From a virus, in the UHGV virus genome UHGV-1350822: a stretch of 38,999 nucleotides of DNA. The stretch is one strand, 5' to 3'. The notes under the pieces are model-generated. The model did not search any database, was not told the origin of the DNA, and saw only the letters and a list, made by a program, of their open reading frames with translations. This document shows, one piece after another, positions 125 through 9,084 of the stretch (the stretch's first letter is position 1; each line of letters opens with the position of its first letter). A program made the position numbers and the translations under genes.

Positions 125-1420
125 ATGGCTACTTGGCAAGGAACAAATGGCGGATTGTTGGCTGGTATCGGTGGTGTCAACTCAAACGCTCCGAGCGTAA
201 ATGACATCGGCAATACGCTTCAGCTTATCAGGCAGAACAATGATATTGAGCGTTCAGGCGCTAACAATGTTGGGCTGACTGCTTTGCAAGGCCTTTCAGG
301 TATTGCGGGGGTGTTTCAGCAGGAAAAGCAGGCTCAGCGGCAGAAAGAATTTCAGCAGGCATACGCTAATGCTTATGCGTCTGGTGATCGCGGTGCTTTG
401 CGTCAGTTGGCTACTCAATATCCAGACCAGATTGAATCCGTTCGTAAAGGCATGGGATTCATTGATGAAGAGCAGCGTAATTCTATCGGCACCTTAGCGG
501 CTGGCGCACGCCTTGCGTCATCGTCTCCAGAAGCAATGCAATCATGGCTGCAAAACAACGCCAATGAGCTGGCGCGCGTCGGTGTTGACCCTAACAGCGT
601 TGCTCAGATGTATCAGCAGAACCCTTCAGGATTTGGTGAGTTTGTTGATCACCTTGGGATGGCTGCGCTTGGTCCGATTGATTACTTCAATGTTCAGGAC
701 AAGATGGCTGGTCGTGAAATTGACCGAGGCAGGCTGGCAGAGACAATCCGCAGCAATCAGGCAGGAGAAGCACTAACAGCTCGAGGTCAGGACATCCAGA
801 TACGTGGACAGAACATCAGCGCACAGAATGCTGCTCTTTCCCGAGAAATACAAAGAGCAGAATTACAAGAAAAGGCTCTGGACAGACAGATAGCCAGAGA
901 AAGCAATCAGTTAAAGCTTGAAGAGCTAAAACAGAAACAGGCAGATGTTCGGCAAAAGGCTGACATAGCCCGCGCTGACAGGCAGGCCGCCGCTCAGGGT
1001 GCAGTTGATACGTTCAGCACTGCGCTTGATTCTCTCAACGAGATAGAGCAAAGCCCCGGCCTTTCAAAAGCAGTAGGAATTCGCTCAGCGTTTCCGACAG
1101 TTCCTGGCTCTGATGCGGCTAACTTTGAAGCAAGGCTCGACACCTTTAAAGCTCAAACATTCCTTCCTATGGTGCAGTCCCTGAAGGGTATGGGCGCTCT
1201 TTCAGATGCTGAGGGTAAAAAATTATCCGATGCGGTTGGTGCCCTAAGCCCCAAAATGAGTGAAAAGGCTTTTCGTGACTCTATCGGAAAGATTAGAAAT
1301 CAGCTTGAAAGCAAGTTGAGCACTGTTAAAAAACAGTTTGATTATCAGGAGCCAGTACAGAATACGCCAGCGCAACAACCTACTACTGGCAGTAACTTTT
1401 CTTCACTATGGGGTGATTAA
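125..1420 (+). CDS. gp20-like DNA ejection/internal virion protein
   Basis: 431-aa ORF, AAGGGG RBS before ATG; position between gp7-like and gp16-like genes as in P22 (7-20-16); coiled-coil/Gln-rich composition. Confidence 0.7.
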
Positions 1421-3723
1421 TGGCTAAAGCATGGAAAGATGTTATCGCCTCTCCACAGTATCAGGCGTTAGCACCAGAACAAAAAGCGCAGGCTCAGGAG
1501 CAATACTTCAATGAAGTCGTGGCACCGCAAGCCGGAGAAAATGCAGAGCAGGCTAAGCAAGCTTTCTATGATGCCTATCCATTGCCTTCAATGCAGACAG
1601 AACAGCAGGAAGTAGGGCAATCTCCTGATACCATTCAGCAAGACAAATCACTTATGCAGCGTGCAGGAGAATGGCTAACAGGTGGGCAAAGCGTAGGTCA
1701 AATTGCCGAGCAGGCGGTAAGAGGATTTGTAAATATTCCTTTTGACGTTCTTCAGGGGGGGGCGAGTCTCATTAATGCCGCATCTCAGAGTTTTGATGGA
1801 CCAAAGATTCTTGATGAAGTATATAGACCAGTTAACCGGCCAACGGATCCGTATGCGCAAGCTGGAGAGTCAATAGGCGGTTATCTTGTTCCTGGAGCAG
1901 GAGTAGCTGGAAACATGGTCATTGGTTCTCTCGCTGACGCGGCGAATCAACGGGGTGATTTTGCCGAAAATGCCGCTATTAATGCCGGACTTAACATTGC
2001 TACGCATGGCCTGATAAATGGCGTTACCCGTGGTGTTCGTGGTGCATCAAATATAATTAGTGGCAATAAAACATCTGCACAGAGAGCGACCACTGCGCCA
2101 ACAGAAACATCACCATTCTCCGGTGATGCCGCTGCAGCAACAAATCCTGCGGTTCATGCCGCAGAGGCAAGAGTAGCACAAGGTGTACCAATGACGCCTG
2201 CGACGAGGAACCCAGAGGAAGTCGTTCGCACAGTAGCAGCACAAAAAAGGCCAAATCTCGCTTCATCGCTTGATGAACTAGATATCAATCCTCAGGCTGA
2301 AGTTCTGGAGTCTGCTGAAAGGCTTAATGTTGATTCATTACTCCCTTCACACTTTTCCGGGAACGAGCAATACAAGGCAGTTGAGCAAGCAATCAAGTCC
2401 CGTGCGGGTTCTGCTCTACAGGTGCAGGAAAATGAAGCAATCAGGCAGCTAGCACAGGGCGCGGGGGAGATAATTGATCGCGTTTCCGGTGCAAAAGATG
2501 CTCTTGGTATGAGCGACAAGTTTATTGATACGGTCAATGGAAGAATGTCTGCGCTGATGAAACGAAGCGACCAGCTTTATCGCAATGTTGAAAAGGCGAT
2601 GCCTGCAGGTGCAAAAATTGATGCACCATCAACAAGGTCAATGCTCAAACAGGTGGCAGAAGATCTTGGCGGGATGAAAAACCTTGACCCTATTGAAAAG
2701 AGAGTCTTTCGGGCAGTTAATCCAGGCAAGAACGGCGCATTAACTTATGCAAATCTCAATAAGCAACGACGACTTGTTGGTGATGCACTTCATAAGAATT
2801 CTGGACCATATAAAGATGCTGATCGCGCTGCTTTATCGAGGCTTTACGGTTCGCTCGCCGATGATCAAAAGGCGGCGCTGTCAGAGACAAATGCATTACG
2901 TGATTTTGAAGTTGCTCAGAGGCTTGTTCAGATGCGAAAAAGCATGGAAGAGCAAATGATTAATCTAACTGGCAGAACGCTGAACGGTGATGTTTCTCGC
3001 AAAGCAACTACAGCACTACAGGCAATGTCGAAAGGCGATGCCAAAGGATTTCGTGAATTGATGCAAAACACGCCGTCCAGGAAGCTAAGAACCGAGCTAC
3101 TGGGAACAGGTCTTCGGGATATGCTTTCGAACGGAAAACGTGGCGCTGATTTTAATCCTGCAGGGTTTGCTGACTGGTATCAAAACATGTTAGCAAACGG
3201 GCAGATGCGCAATCTTGCCCGACATTTACCAAAAGAGACTATGTCAGGTCTGAACGATGTATATAAGGTCGCAAAGGCTATCAAAGATGCAAAATCTTAC
3301 GAGATAACTACAGGAAGACTAAACGAGTTCGTCAAACGGTTTAATCGCGTCACTGCGGCAAATGAATTTGTTGCTAACCATGCCCAACGCATTGGCACTG
3401 CGGTTGGTTCAACTGTGTCAGGACCGTTCAGTGCAGTAGGTGCTGTTGCTGGGTCAGAAATTGGGGCAAAAGTCGCCAGCAAAATCAGGGCGATGGGCGG
3501 CGCTGAATCAATTGAATCTGCAGAAAAGCTAATTAGCTCACCAGAATTCCAGAAAGCAGCAAGGCTGGCAGTAAAACAAGCACCAGAAAGCATCGTTGAT
3601 ACAACTGTAAGACGCTCTTCTGCTTGGCGCTCGTTTTACAACTCACTTCCAGAATCAGATAAGAAAACCATATCAAGGCTAGGCATCATGTACTGGATGA
3701 ACAGTGATGATAACCAGAAGTAA
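1420..3723 (+). CDS. gp16-like DNA ejection protein
   Basis: 767-aa ORF, start overlaps upstream stop (TAATG); synteny with P22 gene 16. Confidence 0.7.
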
Positions 3724-3740
3724 CGGAAAGCAACGGATGG

Positions 3741-4034
3741 TTAGCTGCTGTCTTTTTTATATAGCTCCTTGAGCGTATCAAAGACAATTTTCTTAACCAT
3801 ATCAGATTGTTGTTCTGCCATACGCTCTGCATCGTCAATGTAAACAGATGCAGAGCTTTGTTTAGCCAATGATTCTTCAATCGCTGCAATTATCTCTGAG
3901 TTCAGCGACCTGTTATTCATCTTCGCACGCTGCTTAATTTTCGCGTGGAGTTCATGCGGAAGTCTCAAGTGAAACTGCGCCTCGTCGTATTTGCTGTACA
4001 TCCTTGATGCCTCACCAGTTGGGTGGAATGGCAT
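3741..4034 (-). CDS. mnt: Mnt-like ribbon-helix-helix repressor (Arc/MetJ family)
   Basis: C-terminal region ...NDAERMAEQQSDMVKKIVFDTLKELYKK matches P22 Mnt as recalled; N-terminal RHH segment; alternative start ATG at 4001. Confidence 0.8.
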   Translation of the reverse strand: MPFHPTGEASRMYSKYDEAQFHLRLPHELHAKIKQRAKMNNRSLNSEIIAAIEESLAKQSSASVYIDDAERMAEQQSDMVKKIVFDTLKELYKKDSS

Positions 4035-4122
4035 CGTAACCTACTGGATAAATACTCAATAGTACCATTTCGGTATGCAATCACATCATGGTTGCATCAT
4101 ATCATTCGTCTGGAGCAATGAA

Positions 4123-6321
4123 ATGTCAGATATCACCGCAAATGTTGTGGTAAGCATGCCTTCGCAACTCTTCACTATGGCGCGTTCTTTTAAAGCAGTT
4201 GCCAATGGTAAAATTTATATCGGTAAAATTGACGCTGACCCCGTAAATTCAGAAAACCAGATTCAGGTTTATATAGAGAACGAAGACGGCTCTCACGTTC
4301 CTGTTTCGCAACCAATAATCATTAACGCTGCCGGATATCCGGTATATAACGGACAGATTGCCAAGTTCGTAACTGTGCAAGGCCATTCCATGGCTGTATA
4401 TGATGCGTATGGTTCGCAGCAGTTCTATTTTCCCAATGTGCTGAAGTATGATCCCGATCAGTTTAGCCAGCGAATGGAGAATGTTCCTGACATCCATACC
4501 TTAATGAGCGAGCCTGCTGGGAATCACACATTAAATGTAATTGGATACGTACCAGGAACCAACTTTGGCGGCGGGCAGTTTTACTGGGATGCCAGCATGC
4601 CTAAATCTCAGCACAACGGTATCACCATATTTAGCCCCACAGTTCCGTGGGATGGTTCGTATGCTGAGCTCGCTGCTTTCCTTGCGGGAACTGGTGAGAG
4701 TGATGGTGGTGGCTCTGGTTGCTGGATCCGTTCGAATTGTGTGCTCGATGGCATACATACAGTTTGGGCTGGACATGATATTAACGGAGTGCATGATTCA
4801 ACGGCATCGGTTAACGCTTGTATATCAAAATTTGGTGGTGTTAGAGCAATACGTTTTAGCGCCGGTGAGATAAAGTTTAATTACCAAATCAGCCAGCAAT
4901 ATCATGACTCTGCAGGTGTTATACGTAAAACAGCAATTGTAATTAATGGTAAAAATAATTTATTTGTTTACGCAGATAATGATGTAAATATAAATACAGA
5001 TGGAAATGGTGAGGCTGAGCGTGTTTGCTTTGGTTTATTCAACTGCAAAAACTTTAAATTTAATGGTATAAAGTTAAACCAGTCATGCACAAATTTTTCA
5101 ACTGGACCTTCAGATACCACGTTTACCCCTCAAGAGAATTGGTTTGGTTTCGCACTTGAGGGGAGTAGTGGATCTATTAATGATATTGACGTATTGGCTG
5201 CAAGAATCTTTGTAATGGCAGATGCTGATGGTGACGGTGCTATACCAAATGAGGATATAACTCTTAGCAATGTAAGGACTGATTTGGTAACAAATTATAC
5301 ATTTTTCACTAAAAATCTTAATGGAATTGCTAAGATGATTGACTGCCAAACGTACAGAACAGGCAGAAAATGGCATACTTTTGGTGAAGATTTTGCGTGC
5401 TCAGCAAGAACAAAATATTTAATTGCAGAAAGAAATCACTTTATAAGCCCTATAAGTATTCAGTCTAGGATTACTCCTTGGGGGGTGACTGGTGGTGCAG
5501 TTATATCGAATAACATCAAAACAGGACAAGGAATATTCGTTGAGATAGGAGGTGAATCTAACGGTGTTGCAGCGCAGAATGTTGTTATTGATAGCAATAT
5601 AAGCATTGGGGATCAGAACGAGGATGGCACATTTTCATCTCATATTCTAATTATCTGGAATGGTAGTAATGACTACTCAACATCATTCAATGGAATTAAA
5701 ATAACAAAAAATACATTTAAAGGCGGTGGTTATGCCATAAATGATTATGCTGAAACTCAGATGTCTGCATATTGTTATGGACTTGTGATTGAAAACAACC
5801 AGTTTGATAGAACTGATGCCGTAAAAGTAACAATGCCCACATGGAGAAAATCTATATACCGAGGGAATAAGTCATATTTTGTTCATGGCAATACAGGTTG
5901 TGAAATTGGTGGTTATGCTCCAATTATTTCTGACAACGACTTTGATTCTACATATCTAGTATCAACTTCGGGTGTGCGTATCGATGAACCAGTTATTGAA
6001 AATAATGAGTTTAGTAACACTTTAAACTCACCAGTAAATCAACTTATTGACTGGCCTAGTTTTGCTGGAATGATATATAGAGGAAACAGATACACGTTTT
6101 CAATTAAGAAATTTAGAGATAACGCAGATATGGTTTCCTGTGGTTGGCGTTTTGCCGATGTGTCTGCTGGAATAGACACTGCTCCTACTACAACATACCC
6201 TGGGAAAGTGCTGATAAATATAGGCGATATGATTCACAATGCAGGTACTCCTGCATCAGGAACAAACTGGGCATGGTATGGTCTTGGAAACAATACATAT
6301 GGTAATCTTAATATAGCGTAG
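4123..6321 (+). CDS. Tailspike: P22-type N-terminal head-binding domain fused to a distinct beta-helix receptor-binding/depolymerase domain
   Basis: [11 protein letters not shown]...[11 protein letters not shown]...[13 protein letters not shown]...LKYDPDQ matches the P22 gp9 N-terminus; remainder is Asn/Gly-rich repeats typical of a right-handed beta-helix; GGAG RBS before ATG 4123 (ORF track start 4075 is probably too early). Confidence 0.85.
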
Positions 6322-6331
6322 CGGAAATCAA

Positions 6332-6349
6332 GCGGGGCCATCGCCCCGC
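6332..6349. terminator. Bidirectional stem-loop terminator between convergent tailspike and acyltransferase genes
   Basis: GCGGGGC-CATC-GCCCCGC 7-bp GC stem with 4-nt loop, T-rich flanks on both strands. Confidence 0.6.
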
Positions 6350-6353
6350 AATG

Positions 6354-7508
6354 TTACTTTTTAATGAATCTCCACTCAAAATTCTTAAAACAGATACAGG
6401 AAATAACGCTACACAGAGATGCAATAAAGGCTATCAAAATTGTGTAATTCACAGTAGACATGCTCGATAGGTTATAGAAATTATTTATTGTTCTCATTAC
6501 TATAGCCATGATAGGCAAATGCAGCAAATAAAGACTATAACTTGCCTCACCTAAATAAACTAATGATTTTATTTTAAATATTTTTGGTTTAGTTATAAGT
6601 ACCATTATAAATAGTAATGAAATGCATGCAAATCTGATTCGTCCATAGCTGTCTGCGGAAGAGCAGAAGATAACAAAAATAGCTATGAAAGAAATGAATG
6701 AGAATATCCAATATTTATCATCAATGTTAACATAAGATTTATTGAATATATATGCACCTAAGGCGCCAACTATAAAATATGGCCACAAAACAAATTCTGT
6801 CATAAAGTCTCTTGCCGCAAGTAACATTACTGCGGAAATGGCAAACATACCATATCTCTTGCTTGCGATGGCAATCGATAATAGAGGGAAAATTAAATAA
6901 AACCTCCATTCATACGGTAGAGTCCATATCACCGCATTTAATCCTGATGCGTTAAAAGAGCCAATGAAGATTTCTGTGCCCAAAAATCCAAACCCAAAAA
7001 AATTTAGGAAGCTTGAAAAATCAACAAAGTTAAGCCTTGCTGAACTGCCGGATAATATAATAGCTAAAATTGCCACCAAAAGCGCAGTAAGCATATATAG
7101 AGGAACGAGTCTTTTTATCCGAGCAACATAAAATTTATTCCAGTCAAATGTATTATTTCCTTTTATTAATTTATCAAAGAACAAAAATCCTGTAATGCAA
7201 AAGAAAATCTGTACACCGAAGCTACCCATATTCCCTGTGATGGAGTATTTTGTGAAGTCTATAAATATGGGCTGAACTCCATTGGTAATAATTGTATGAG
7301 CGCCGTGATTAATAAGAACGCTGAACGCAGCTATCCCACGCAATCCGTCTATAAAGAAATACCTGTTACTTGCAAAGTTGATGTGAGAAAAATAGTTATA
7401 TCGTGTCAATAGTGTAATACATAACACAACGGCTAAAAGAGACAAAAAATATAAATAAAGACTTTGCGCCTCAAAGATCATAATGCACACCATGAGATAA
7501 AATTTCAA
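6354..7508 (-). CDS. oac: Acyltransferase-3 family integral membrane protein, likely O-antigen acetyltransferase (lysogenic conversion)
   Basis: About 10 predicted TM helices; N-terminal R...H motif (RGIAAFSVLINH) and FFCITGFLFF motif typical of acyltransferase 3; very AT-rich; sits between tailspike and int as oac does in Sf6. ORF-track start is TTG at 7508; ATG at 7493 is more likely. Confidence 0.8.
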   Translation of the reverse strand: MKFYLMVCIMIFEAQSLYLYFLSLLAVVLCITLLTRYNYFSHINFASNRYFFIDGLRGIAAFSVLINHGAHTIITNGVQPIFIDFTKYSITGNMGSFGVQIFFCITGFLFFDKLIKGNNTFDWNKFYVARIKRLVPLYMLTALLVAILAIILSGSSARLNFVDFSSFLNFFGFGFLGTEIFIGSFNASGLNAVIWTLPYEWRFYLIFPLLSIAIASKRYGMFAISAVMLLAARDFMTEFVLWPYFIVGALGAYIFNKSYVNIDDKYWIFSFISFIAIFVIFCSSADSYGRIRFACISLLFIMVLITKPKIFKIKSLVYLGEASYSLYLLHLPIMAIVMRTINNFYNLSSMSTVNYTILIAFIASLCSVISCICFKNFEWRFIKK

Positions 7509-7726
7509 AGGATTATAGCAGGGCTACCAGCGCAGATCACCAACTCACTGCTCATGATGAGCATTTCTATGATTATAAAATAACTGCAAAAAGTATTACG
7601 TCTAACAGTGAAGCAGATCACAAAGACGATTTATGAACGTTCTGGTGAATTTGATGATTGCCAGGTAATGTGAGGCATGAACGAGGCACACAAAGCTTTG
7701 TACTATCCGATAGTGGTTAAGATCGA

Positions 7727-8884
7727 TCACTCCACCTTTTCATCAATCCAGTCAGCCCACCACTGCATCATTTCTCTGCGCTTATCTAGATACTGAGCAT
7801 GGTTGTAAATCCCGCGCACAGATCCGCCGTTGGCATGTGCAAGTTGCACTTCAATAGCGTCAGCAGGCCATTCGTGCTCGTTCATAATCGTGCTGAATTC
7901 ATGCCTGAATCCGTGACCGCTTTCCAGACCCTCATAGCCGATTTGTTTGATCACAAGCAATACCGCGTTCTCGCAGATTGGCTTTTTCTTATCGTTGCGC
8001 CCGGCAAAAACAAACTCTGATACTGGTTTAGTGATTGAGCTTAGCGTAGTGAGAAGTTCAACCACCTGGTCTGACATCGGGACAACATGAATTTTGCGTC
8101 CCTTCATCACACTGGCGTCGATGGTGATAATCCTGTTTTCAAAATCGACGTTCTTCCATTGCATGGAACGAAGCTCTTTCGTTCTTAGGGCTGTGTAGCG
8201 TAAAACTTTGGTCGCAATGAGCGATACGATACTTCCTGAAAATGTTGCAAGTGCTTTGTTGAATGCCGGGATCTGGTCGGCAGGTAAAAACGGGAAGTTC
8301 TTCTTGCGGTATCCCTTCATGGCGTCAGCAAGGTCAGGTGCCGGGTTATATTTAGCCCTACCAGTGACAATAGCGTAACGAAAAACCTCGCCGCATCTTC
8401 TGCGGGCTTTGTTGGCTCGCTCCATTGCACCGCGATCTTCAAATCTGCGGATTACTTCCAGCAGTTGCATCGGCTCAATATCCTGAATCTCAAGACCGCC
8501 GATGATGGGTAAAATGTCGTCATCAAACATTTTGGCAAGTTCAGTTGCATAGCCTACTGACCAGACTTGCTTCTTGTGCTCGTACCATTCCTTGTAAATC
8601 GCACTAAATGAATTGTTGCTAGACGAAGACTTTTTCGCCTTTACCGGATCGATGCCAACCGAGATGTCTTTCCTCGCAGTCCATGCCTTATCCCTTGCTT
8701 CCTGCAAAGTCATAAGCGGATATTTTCCGACAGTCAGGATTTTCTCCTTACCGTCAATCTTGTAGCGAAGCTGCCATACCTTTTTCCCTGATACAGGGAC
8801 ATAAAGGTACAGGCCATTACCATCGAGTAGGCGGTATGGTTTTTCTTTCGGCTTTGCTGCTTCAATCTGCTTAACGGTGAGCAT
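7727..8884 (-). CDS. int: Tyrosine integrase, P4/IntS-type (DUF4102 arm-binding N-domain plus catalytic domain)
   Basis: MLTVKQIEAAKPKEKPYRLLDGNGLYLYV N-domain; catalytic residues in HGFRHEF...LAH...Y; ORF track extends to GTG 8920 but ATG 8884 matches the usual IntS-type N-terminus. Confidence 0.9.
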   Translation of the reverse strand: MLTVKQIEAAKPKEKPYRLLDGNGLYLYVPVSGKKVWQLRYKIDGKEKILTVGKYPLMTLQEARDKAWTARKDISVGIDPVKAKKSSSSNNSFSAIYKEWYEHKKQVWSVGYATELAKMFDDDILPIIGGLEIQDIEPMQLLEVIRRFEDRGAMERANKARRRCGEVFRYAIVTGRAKYNPAPDLADAMKGYRKKNFPFLPADQIPAFNKALATFSGSIVSLIATKVLRYTALRTKELRSMQWKNVDFENRIITIDASVMKGRKIHVVPMSDQVVELLTTLSSITKPVSEFVFAGRNDKKKPICENAVLLVIKQIGYEGLESGHGFRHEFSTIMNEHEWPADAIEVQLAHANGGSVRGIYNHAQYLDKRREMMQWWADWIDEKVE

Positions 8885-9045
8885 GGGTAAAAATCCGGTG
8901 GGTAAAATTATTTTATCCACTTTTTACCCGTCATGGAGTGCGGCTGTCAACGATCTGACGCGAACCATGACGAACCGTGAATATACGTAAGGCTTGATAT
9001 TCAGGGGATTTTGCGGACTGGTACGGATGGGAGCGAACTGATAAA

Positions 9046-9084
9046 TGGTGTCCCCTGCAGACATCTACTTGACGAGGCAGGGGA
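9046..9084 (-). other. Candidate attP core: 15 nt identical to the 3' end of tRNA-Arg (argW) including CCA, inside an 8-bp inverted repeat
   Basis: 9046-9060 TGGTGTCCCCTGCAG is the reverse complement of CTGCAGGGGACACCA (argW 3' end as I recall it); inverted repeat TCCCCTGC(9051-58)/GCAGGGGA(9077-84); about 161 nt upstream of int ATG. Confidence 0.5.

What the first reader, a model, noticed from the sequence alone, without database searches (positions are those of the whole stretch)
4123..6321. Chimeric tailspike: conserved P22-type head-binding domain fused to a divergent, AT-rich beta-helix receptor-binding domain
The first ~125 aa align with the P22 gp9 N-terminus. The remainder is unrelated to P22 or Sf6 as far as I can tell, Asn/Gly/Ile-rich with repetitive beta-helix character, and the DNA becomes AT-rich from about 4860 onward. 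This suggests a recently swapped receptor-binding module of unknown glycan specificity.
Basis: partly seen in the sequence, partly recalled or inferred. Interest (0 to 1): 0.6.

Follow-up and report, generated by a model that had tools for sequence, protein, structure and literature searches.

The report
Mosaic P22-type tailspike, probably O6-specific
This is the tailspike gene of a P22-like temperate coliphage, an ordinary modular tailspike that already sits in E. coli W and hundreds of other assemblies; its swapped-in sugar-binding part has not been studied experimentally, but it most likely recognises the E. coli O6 O-antigen.

Summary
ORF 4123-6321 (732 aa) has a P22/Sf6-type head-binding domain (aa 1-113, Pfam PF09008, 90% identical to Sf6 gp14). 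It is followed by a predicted right-handed beta-helix with no sequence-level match to P22, Sf6 or HK620 spikes. GC3 falls from 0.46 to 0.26 at about codon 210 (nt ~4750). The gene has three segments, not two: the head-binding domain, a conserved cap (aa ~116-185) and an AT-rich specificity body. The cap is 98-100% identical in DNA to other E. coli prophage spikes. The gene is not new. It is 99.8% identical to the argW prophage tailspike of E. coli W (WP_001280400.1), the exact protein occurs in 269 collection blocks, and the C-terminal part is Pfam PF27114 and PHROG 24092. Specificity can now be predicted. E. coli W is O6. The only other complete genome with this body (E423) carries the same rare O6 wzy allele (22 of 20,395 records). 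phiEB49, which encodes a 37% homologue, needs O6 antigen to infect. The body also travels with O-antigen-modifying genes: an acyltransferase here, gtrABC in E423, Citrobacter and Salmonella. Verdict: new member of a known kind, low-to-moderate interest.

The parts
4123..6321 (+). Tailspike gene (gp9/gp14 equivalent), 732 aa plus stop codon
   Evidence: ORF. It is 99.8% identical in DNA to E. coli W WP_001280400.1. A GGAG lies at 4111-4114, 8 nt before the ATG.
4123..4461 (+). Head-binding (particle-attachment) domain, aa 1-113
   Evidence: PF09008, E 6.7e-66. 90% identical to Sf6 gp14 N-terminus and 70% to P22 gp9 N-terminus. 88-93% DNA identity to HK620, Sf6, CUS-3, Sf101 and others, ending at gene nt 341-352.
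4468..4680 (+). Linker plus conserved N-terminal cap of the receptor-binding domain (aa ~116-186; motif [39 protein letters not shown])
   Evidence: Gene nt 301-540 are 98-100% identical to the spikes of strains AST198 and 2017-02-2CC, which then diverge. The aa 161-180 block is 93% conserved across 44 family members. G149-151, W155, H164, E192, C200, W201 and R203 are invariant. The region also aligns to CBA120 TSP4 and WceF.
4723..6318 (+). AT-rich specificity body, aa 201-732: right-handed parallel beta-helix plus a C-terminal beta-rich region (aa ~640-732)
6332..6349 (.). GC-rich perfect hairpin (GCGGGGC-CATC-GCCCCGC) between the convergent stop codons of the tailspike and the acyltransferase. 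Likely a bidirectional terminator and the 3' edge of the tailspike module.
   Evidence: Terminator-like scan, both strands. Identity to E423 ends at the tailspike stop codon.
6354..7508 (-). Acyltransferase_3 membrane protein, a candidate O-antigen O-acetyltransferase for lysogenic conversion. AT-rich, GC 0.33.
   Evidence: PF01757, E 6e-33. PHROG 3333 'O-acetyltransferase', E 1e-43. 27% identical over 97% of its length to Sf101 O-acyltransferase B, at the same position and orientation. GC.
3732..9060 (.). 5.3-kb block (mnt/arc-like repressor, tailspike, acyltransferase, integrase, to the attP core) shared at 99.3% with the E. coli W argW prophage. The flanking ejection-protein gene differs.
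   Evidence: blastn of the window against L001. Annotation of E. coli W. The match ends inside tRNA-Arg in E. coli W.

Best explanation
This is the functional tailspike of a P22-like (Lederbergvirus-type, HK620/Kapi1/CUS-3-related) temperate phage that integrates at argW.

How it works:
- The N-terminal domain (aa 1-113) docks the spike, presumably as a trimer, onto the tail hub, as in P22 and Sf6.
- The remainder is a right-handed parallel beta-helix. It binds the host O-antigen and most likely cleaves it as an endoglycosidase, which brings the virion down to the outer membrane.
- The predicted substrate is the E. coli O6 O-polysaccharide, in the variant made by strains carrying the E. coli W-type wzy allele.

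The gene is a three-part mosaic:
1. A universal head-binding module.
2. A strongly conserved cap (aa ~116-185) that offers homology for recombination.
3. A low-GC specificity body (aa ~190-732), which moves between phage types together with the adjacent O-antigen-modifying gene or genes. Here that gene is an acyltransferase, which probably alters the O-antigen of lysogens and so blocks re-adsorption.

Shown: domain identities, mosaic boundaries, composition shift, fold class and host co-occurrence. Inferred: trimer formation, hydrolytic activity, O6 as substrate, and the role of the acyltransferase.
For: Identity and context:
- PF09008 head-binding domain.
- P22-type neighbours: gp4, gp10, needle, gp7/20/16-like ejection proteins, mnt/arc, then tailspike, acyltransferase and integrase.
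- The backbone is 96-97% identical over about half its length to Kapi1, HK620 and CUS-3.

Fold:
- AF2 mean pLDDT 82, body above 90.

Mosaic structure:
- Junctions at gene nt ~345 and ~545-600.
- GC3 change point at codon 210, with 0 of 1000 permutations reaching it.
- The same body is 94% identical behind a PF18668 anchor in a C. freundii siphovirus-type prophage and 70% identical in Salmonella P22-like prophages.

O6 link:
- E. coli W carries O6 wzx/wzy and is described as O6 in PMC3032704.
- O6 wzy is in 154 of 5,426 genomes. The W-like allele (>=99%) is in only 22 records.
- E423, the only non-W complete genome with this body, is one of those 22 (H169).
- phiEB49 (gp24 is 37% identical in the body) cannot infect CFT073 delta-wzy or delta-waaL (PMC12488582). 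Other homologue-bearing phages were isolated on the O6 strains ATCC 25922 and 536.

Linkage to O-antigen modification:
- The downstream gene is an acyltransferase here and in W, and gtrABC in E423, C. freundii and Salmonella.
- GtrC identity (85% and 56%) tracks body identity (94% and 70%).

Signs of enzymatic activity:
- D262, E299, R300, D331, E338, W340, D367, N391, Y392, R415, H418, E422, E474 and H507 are conserved in 41-45 of 45 sequences, although these are only ~30-40% identical overall.
- The E. coli W O6 cluster contains manB/manC, an epimerase annotated GalE and four glycosyltransferases, but no uronic-acid genes. That fits a neutral polymer, which needs a hydrolase rather than a lyase.
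Against: - No member of this beta-helix family has a demonstrated substrate or activity, and no solved structure matches by sequence beyond residue ~170.
- The O6 co-occurrence rests on few independent lineages: the E. coli W family plus E423. The 22 records with the W-like wzy allele may be clonally related.
- Two other body types, ~30% identical to this one, occur in the same O6 lineage. One serotype therefore does not map to one body type.
- Close homologues live in Citrobacter and Salmonella, whose O-antigens I did not identify.
- PHROG 8280, labelled 'colanic acid degradation', matches aa 1-562.
Confidence: 0.75

Rival explanations
1. The body recognises a glycan other than the O-antigen, such as colanic acid or a capsule. 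Its presence in O6 strains would then only reflect shared ancestry of those strains.
For: PHROG 8280, annotated 'tail spike protein with colonic acid degradation activity', matches aa 1-562 (E 4e-102). The cap region resembles WceF, an exopolysaccharide-modifying enzyme (6tgf, E 1e-9). The strains with the W-like wzy allele could be one clone.
Against: - There is no detectable similarity to WcaM of E. coli W (BLASTP E > 2; hhalign probability 0.3%).
- Colanic acid is, from general knowledge, made by nearly all E. coli. Yet this body and its two sister types occur only in the 22-record O6 sublineage among 5,426 genomes.
- phiEB49 needs O6 antigen, and its infection is hindered rather than helped by the K2 capsule.
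- The body is always adjacent to O-antigen-modifying genes.
- The high divergence between family members is what serotype-specific receptors would show.
Confidence: 0.07
2. The beta-helix binds the O-antigen but does not cut the backbone. It would be either a non-enzymatic adhesin or an enzyme that only modifies side groups.
Against: A set of acidic and other polar residues spread along the helix (E299, E338, D367, E422, E474, H418, R415) is kept in 43-45 of 45 sequences that are otherwise 30-40% identical. That pattern is more typical of an active site than of a binding surface that must track variable glycans. Characterised P22-like spikes (P22, Sf6, HK620) are endoglycosidases, from established knowledge. 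No esterase (SGNH) domain is present.
Confidence: 0.13
3. The AT-rich stretch is not a horizontally acquired module. It would simply reflect the Asn/Ile-rich amino-acid composition of a beta-helix.
For: N and I codons are AT-rich, and the body is 10% N and 10% I.
Against: The shift is strongest at third codon positions: GC3 0.46 to 0.26, with 0 of 1000 permutations reaching it. It lies about 30-90 nt downstream of a sharp homology breakpoint against sister spikes. The same body occurs behind unrelated N-terminal anchors in other phage types. The adjacent acyltransferase is also low-GC (0.33).
Confidence: 0.03

Closest known systems
Tailspikes of P22 (gp9), Sf6 (gp14) and HK620 (gp9): Lederbergvirus endoglycosidase tailspikes
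   Different: There is no sequence similarity after residue ~117. The body belongs to another family (PF27114/PHROG 24092). The predicted substrate is O6, rather than Salmonella O:4,12, S. flexneri Y or E. coli O18A1, which are the substrates from established knowledge.
E. coli W argW prophage tailspike WP_001280400.1 ('phage head-binding domain-containing protein')
   Same: 99.8% DNA identity over the whole gene, with all 4 differences in the first 87 nt. The acyltransferase and integrase are also shared, giving 99.3% identity over window 3732-9060..
   Different: The upstream ejection-protein gene differs (767 aa here against 665 aa), as does much of the rest of the phage backbone. The window is therefore a relative carrying the same module, not the same prophage.
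Tail spikes or 'tail fibers' of lytic O6-strain phages: phiEB49 gp24, ACG-M12 gp47, vB_EcoS_UALMA_PCEc3, Kagunavirus 536P11
   Same: Homologous from the cap to the C-terminus: 35-39% identity over 98% of the receptor-binding part (E 1e-77 to 1e-107). The conserved polar residues are the same. The hosts are O6 strains, and phiEB49 needs the O6 antigen..
   Different: These are siphoviruses (Drexlerviridae and Kagunavirus), with long unrelated N-terminal anchors (936-997 aa proteins). Identity is low, so the linkage cut or the O6 variant recognised may differ..
Pfam PF27114 (Phage_tail_beta) / PHROG 24092
   Same: The identical protein carries a precomputed PF27114 hit. PHROG 24092 matches aa 117-732.
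   Different: These are families defined by sequence only, and I found no experimentally defined activity for any member. The local Pfam copy does not contain the model, so I could not score it myself.
Pantoea stewartii WceF (PDB 6tgf) and CBA120 TSP4 (5w6h)
   Different: The beta-helix bodies are not similar in sequence. WceF is a bacterial enzyme, not a virion protein.

Membership tests
P22-like (Lederbergvirus) tailspike | N-terminal head-binding domain PF09008 | tested here: met
   E 6.7e-66, covering 1-113 of 113 profile positions. Aligns to Sf6 and P22 chains.
P22-like (Lederbergvirus) tailspike | Encoded in a P22-type late region, downstream of the ejection proteins and next to the conversion and integrase genes | tested here: met
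   Neighbouring genes. Backbone similarity to HK620, Kapi1 and CUS-3.
P22-like (Lederbergvirus) tailspike | Right-handed parallel beta-helix receptor-binding domain | tested here: met
P22-like (Lederbergvirus) tailspike | Homotrimer with O-antigen endoglycosidase activity | not testable with these tools
   Needs protein biochemistry. Only indirect support is available, from the conserved acidic residues.
P22 gp9 / Sf6 gp14 / HK620 gp9 receptor-binding domain orthologues | Sequence homology of the beta-helix domain to one of these characterised spikes | tested here: not met
   phmmer and profile searches of the PDB match these chains only over residues 1-117. DNA similarity ends at gene nt 341-352.
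Pfam PF27114 Phage_tail_beta | Significant match to the family model | tested here: met
   A precomputed hit is listed for the identical protein (P0001; L002-L005). I did not recompute it, because the local Pfam copy lacks the model.
O6-specific receptor-binding proteins (a working class, not a curated family) | Occurs only in phages or prophages of O6 hosts | tested here: met
   All 6 complete-genome records with this body carry the W-like O6 wzy allele, which is found in 22 records of 5,426 genomes. The test is weak, with about two independent lineages. Hosts of the Citrobacter and Salmonella homologues were not typed.
O6-specific receptor-binding proteins (a working class, not a curated family) | Binds or cleaves the O6 polysaccharide | not testable with these tools
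   Requires LPS degradation or adsorption assays.
Glycoside hydrolase family 110 (alpha-1,3-galactosidases) | Sequence membership and conserved catalytic residues | tested here: inconclusive
Colanic-acid-degrading spikes / WcaM-like | Homology to WcaM or to a proven colanic acid depolymerase | tested here: not met
   BLASTP E > 2 and hhalign probability 0.3% against E. coli W WcaM. The only support is a PHROG label.

The most novel reading that the evidence does not exclude
One O6 sublineage of E. coli (W-like wzy allele) hosts three beta-helix bodies of the same small family. The window type is ~30% identical to the other two, and those two are ~50% identical to each other.

The three share a cap segment that is 98-100% identical in DNA, and each sits next to a different O-antigen-modifying gene: a short acyltransferase, another acyltransferase, a long acyltransferase, or gtrABC.

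This could be a within-serotype arms race. Each conversion gene would create a modified O6, and each body type would be tuned to a different modification state or linkage. The conserved cap would serve as the recombination site for swapping bodies.
Probability: 0.25. Interest if true: 0.5.

Novelty: new member of a known kind. Interest (0 to 1): 0.27.

Why it matters
The practical value is modest. O6 is a common serogroup of uropathogenic and commensal E. coli such as CFT073, 536, Nissle 1917 and ATCC 25922. I found no characterised O6-specific tailspike in the papers searched. A soluble protein predicted to cleave O6 would be useful for typing, for phage host-range engineering and for studying O6 LPS. 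E. coli W, a standard industrial strain, already carries the gene.

Conceptually it adds one more clear example of tailspike modularity. It is cleaner than most, with two defined junctions and a body that travels together with the conversion genes across phage morphotypes and genera. It does not change what is known about how tailspikes work.

Tried and rejected
- **Solved structures by sequence.** Single-sequence and profile searches found nothing beyond the N-terminal ~170 residues.
- **WcaM / colanic acid lead.** Prompted by a PHROG label; no similarity was found.
- **NCBIfam.** No hit.
- **Recent DNA exchange with lytic siphophages.** Only 66% nt identity over 272 nt of the cap with ACG-M12, and none detectable with phiEB49. 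The conservation there is at protein level.
- **Locating the E423 O-antigen cluster by synteny.** This failed, apparently because the E423 chromosome is arranged differently from E. coli W. I got the answer from the wzy search instead.
- **Kapi1 paper.** The apparent mention of 'E. coli W' was strain W3110.
- **O6 repeat-unit structure.** I could not retrieve it from the held text of the O-antigen review. The statement that O6 is a neutral Man/GalNAc/GlcNAc/Glc polymer rests on my own knowledge (Jann et al. 1994, cited there) and on the gene content of the E. coli W cluster.
- **Conserved residues in 3D.** I could not place them, because model coordinates are not exposed.

Full report
**What is there.** The window is a complete-looking P22-like temperate phage genome. 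Around the finding lie, in order: a gp16-like ejection-protein gene (1420-3723), an Mnt/Arc-type repressor gene (3741-4034, minus strand), the ORF in question, an Acyl_transf_3 gene (6354-7508, minus strand) and a tyrosine integrase gene (7727-8920, minus strand). The mechanical ORF begins at ATG 4075.

**Checking the observation.**
- Residues 1-113 match Pfam Head_binding over the whole model (E 6.7e-66).
- Residues 1-117 align to Sf6 gp14 (90% identity) and P22 gp9 (70%).
- DNA similarity to 28 sequenced P22-like phages (HK620, Sf6, Sf101, CUS-3, epsilon34 and others) ends at gene nt 341-352.
- No solved tailspike matches by sequence after residue ~117, either with the single sequence or with a 45-sequence profile.
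- Residues 241-732 are 10.4% Asn, 10.0% Gly and 9.8% Ile.
- AlphaFold2, using a 45-sequence alignment, gives mean pLDDT 82, mostly above 90 from residue ~220 on. The model is a long run of short beta-strands.
- The composition shift is real. The other phage genes have GC3 of 0.37-0.57, while the body has 0.26 and the neighbouring acyltransferase 0.33.
- The best GC3 change point is codon 210 (nt 4753), and 0 of 1000 permutations reach the observed gain.

**Three modules, not two.** Two other E. coli prophage tailspikes (strains AST198 and 2017-02-2CC) are 98-100% identical in DNA to this gene over nt 301-540. They then fall to ~45% nt and ~30% aa identity within about 60 nt. A second junction therefore lies at window ~4667-4722, which is 30-90 nt upstream of the GC3 change point. 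The segment between the two junctions (aa ~116-185, [39 protein letters not shown]...) is the most conserved part of the whole family. The block aa 161-180 is 93% conserved across 44 relatives that are otherwise 30-40% identical. It also aligns to CBA120 TSP4 and to the bacterial enzyme WceF. Against lytic siphophages this region is conserved only at protein level (66% nt). Among E. coli prophages it is near-identical DNA, which makes it a plausible site for homologous exchange.

**Not new as a sequence.**
- The gene is 99.8% identical to the tailspike of the argW prophage of E. coli W. The four differences all lie in the first 87 nt.
- The whole block 3732-9060 is 99.3% identical to E. coli W and ends inside tRNA-Arg, that is, at the att core. 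The ejection-protein gene next door differs.
- The identical protein is on record in 269 blocks of the assembly collection.
- The C-terminal part carries Pfam PF27114 (Phage_tail_beta) in the precomputed annotation and matches PHROG 24092. My local Pfam copy lacks the PF27114 model.
- The body is nevertheless a narrow lineage. Residues 201-732 find only 23 clusters at 50% identity among 1.84 billion representatives.

**Relatives and exchange.**
- The same body is 94% identical in Citrobacter freundii prophages. There it follows a different anchor domain (PF18668), in a siphovirus-type tail region with a tape-measure gene.
- It is 70% and 55% identical in Salmonella P22-like prophages.
- It is 35-39% identical in lytic siphoviruses ACG-M12, phiEB49, CEB_EC3a, UALMA_PCEc3 and Kagunavirus 536P11.
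- In E423, C. freundii and Salmonella the body is followed by gtrABC. E423 and C. freundii share 86% nt identity over 4.5 kb spanning the body plus gtrABC. GtrC identity (85% and 56%) tracks body identity (94% and 70%).
- In the window and in E. coli W the partner is instead an acyltransferase, 27% identical to the Sf101 O-acyltransferase at the same position.
- The receptor-binding body and the receptor-modifying gene thus behave as a linked cassette.

**Which glycan.**
- E. coli W has O6 wzx and wzy and is reported as O6 (PMC3032704).
- O6 wzy is present in 154 of 5,426 complete genomes. The W-like allele (>=99% identity) occurs in only 22 records.
- Every complete-genome record with this body is among those 22. 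These are five records that carry the W prophage at 99.8% identity and a wzy identical to W's (apparently all strain W), plus E423 (H149-H170).
- The two sister body types are likewise found in 6 genomes each, all within the same 22 records.
- phiEB49, whose gp24 is a homologue, cannot infect CFT073 delta-wzy or delta-waaL (PMC12488582).
- ATCC 25922 and 536, the hosts of two other homologue-bearing phages, carry O6 wzy.
- I therefore predict O6 specificity, at roughly 70% confidence. The independent host lineages are few and may be clonally related.
- The E. coli W O6 cluster encodes mannose-pathway genes, an epimerase and four glycosyltransferases, but no uronic-acid functions. Together with my recollection of the O6 structure as a neutral polymer, this argues for a hydrolase rather than a lyase.
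- Residues D262, E299, R300, D331, E338, W340, D367, N391, Y392, R415, H418, E422, E474 and H507 are kept in 41-45 of 45 sequences. They are the obvious active-site candidates, but I could not place them in three dimensions.

**Rivals.**
- The PHROG label 'colanic acid degradation' is not supported. There is no similarity to WcaM, and the restriction to one O-type sublineage does not fit a near-universal exopolysaccharide.
- A non-cleaving binder cannot be excluded without biochemistry.
- A purely compositional explanation of the AT-richness is contradicted by the GC3 signal, the homology breakpoints and the presence of the same body behind other anchors.

**Verdict.** This is the normal way P22-like tailspikes evolve. 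The gene is already present and annotated in a standard laboratory strain, and it belongs to existing families. It is a new, uncharacterised member of a known kind. What this analysis adds is a testable O6 prediction, a second junction at a conserved cap, and the co-transfer of the body with the conversion genes. The most interesting open reading is that three divergent bodies within one O6 sublineage, each with a different conversion gene, reflect a within-serotype arms race.

Noticed in passing
window 6354-7508 (minus strand): A very AT-rich (GC 0.33) Acyl_transf_3 gene lies convergent with the tailspike. It is 27% identical to Sf101 O-acyltransferase B, at the same position and orientation, and is probably an O-antigen O-acetylase used for lysogenic conversion. 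In E423, C. freundii and Salmonella, the equivalent place after the same tailspike body holds gtrABC instead.
   Followed up: partly
window 9046-9060 (end of the match to E. coli W): Identity to the E. coli W prophage stops at window 9060, which corresponds to a position inside tRNA-Arg (argW) in W. The attP core therefore lies just upstream of the integrase start. The window is in phage (attP) form, not an integrated prophage.
   Followed up: partly
window 1420-3723: The gp16-like ejection protein is 767 aa here, against 665 aa in E. coli W and 708 aa in another carrier. Only short pieces match W, so the tailspike-acyltransferase-integrase block sits on different P22-like backbones. The protein had no hit in the local Pfam copy.
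   Followed up: no
L006, L008 and other E. coli chromosomes: Strains AST198, JKHS016, LR-64-2, VE-F10 and OZ121069 each carry a full AST198-type tailspike. Each also carries, elsewhere on the chromosome, a 93%-length copy of the 2017-02-2CC-type body annotated as 'hypothetical protein | ead/Ea22-like'. The prophages around the full-length spikes in AST198 and 2017-02-2CC look deleted, with late genes missing. All these strains have the W-like O6 wzy allele.
   Followed up: partly
L007 2831-6101 (E. coli E423): The E423 copy of this tailspike is split by an ISApl1 insertion after about 33 codons. The annotated 'phage tailspike protein' CDS reads in from IS sequence. E423 contains several ISApl1 copies, and its chromosome is arranged differently from that of E. 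coli W.
   Followed up: no
E. coli genomes records NZ_CP026085.1 and NZ_CM135829.1: Two records labelled 'DH5alpha' carry the E. coli W prophage tailspike at 99.8% identity and an O6 wzy identical to that of W. They look like E. coli W rather than a K-12 strain. Conversely, KO11FL and LY180 carry a wzy identical to W's (my own knowledge: both are W-derived) but are not among the records with the full tailspike, so they may have lost the prophage.
   Followed up: no
window 4141-4623 (aa 7-167) against PDB 6tgf: The Pantoea stewartii exopolysaccharide enzyme WceF aligns by sequence (E 1.2e-9) to the head-binding domain plus cap of this phage protein. A bacterial enzyme thus retains a phage-particle-attachment-like N-terminus.
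   Followed up: no
window 6332-6349: A perfect 7-bp GC-only hairpin lies between the two convergent stop codons. Neither strand has a proper T-run after it: the scan's tails hold 6 T (minus strand) and 5 T (plus strand) in 10 bases, interrupted. It may act as a bidirectional terminator or as the 3' recombination boundary of the tailspike module.
   Followed up: no
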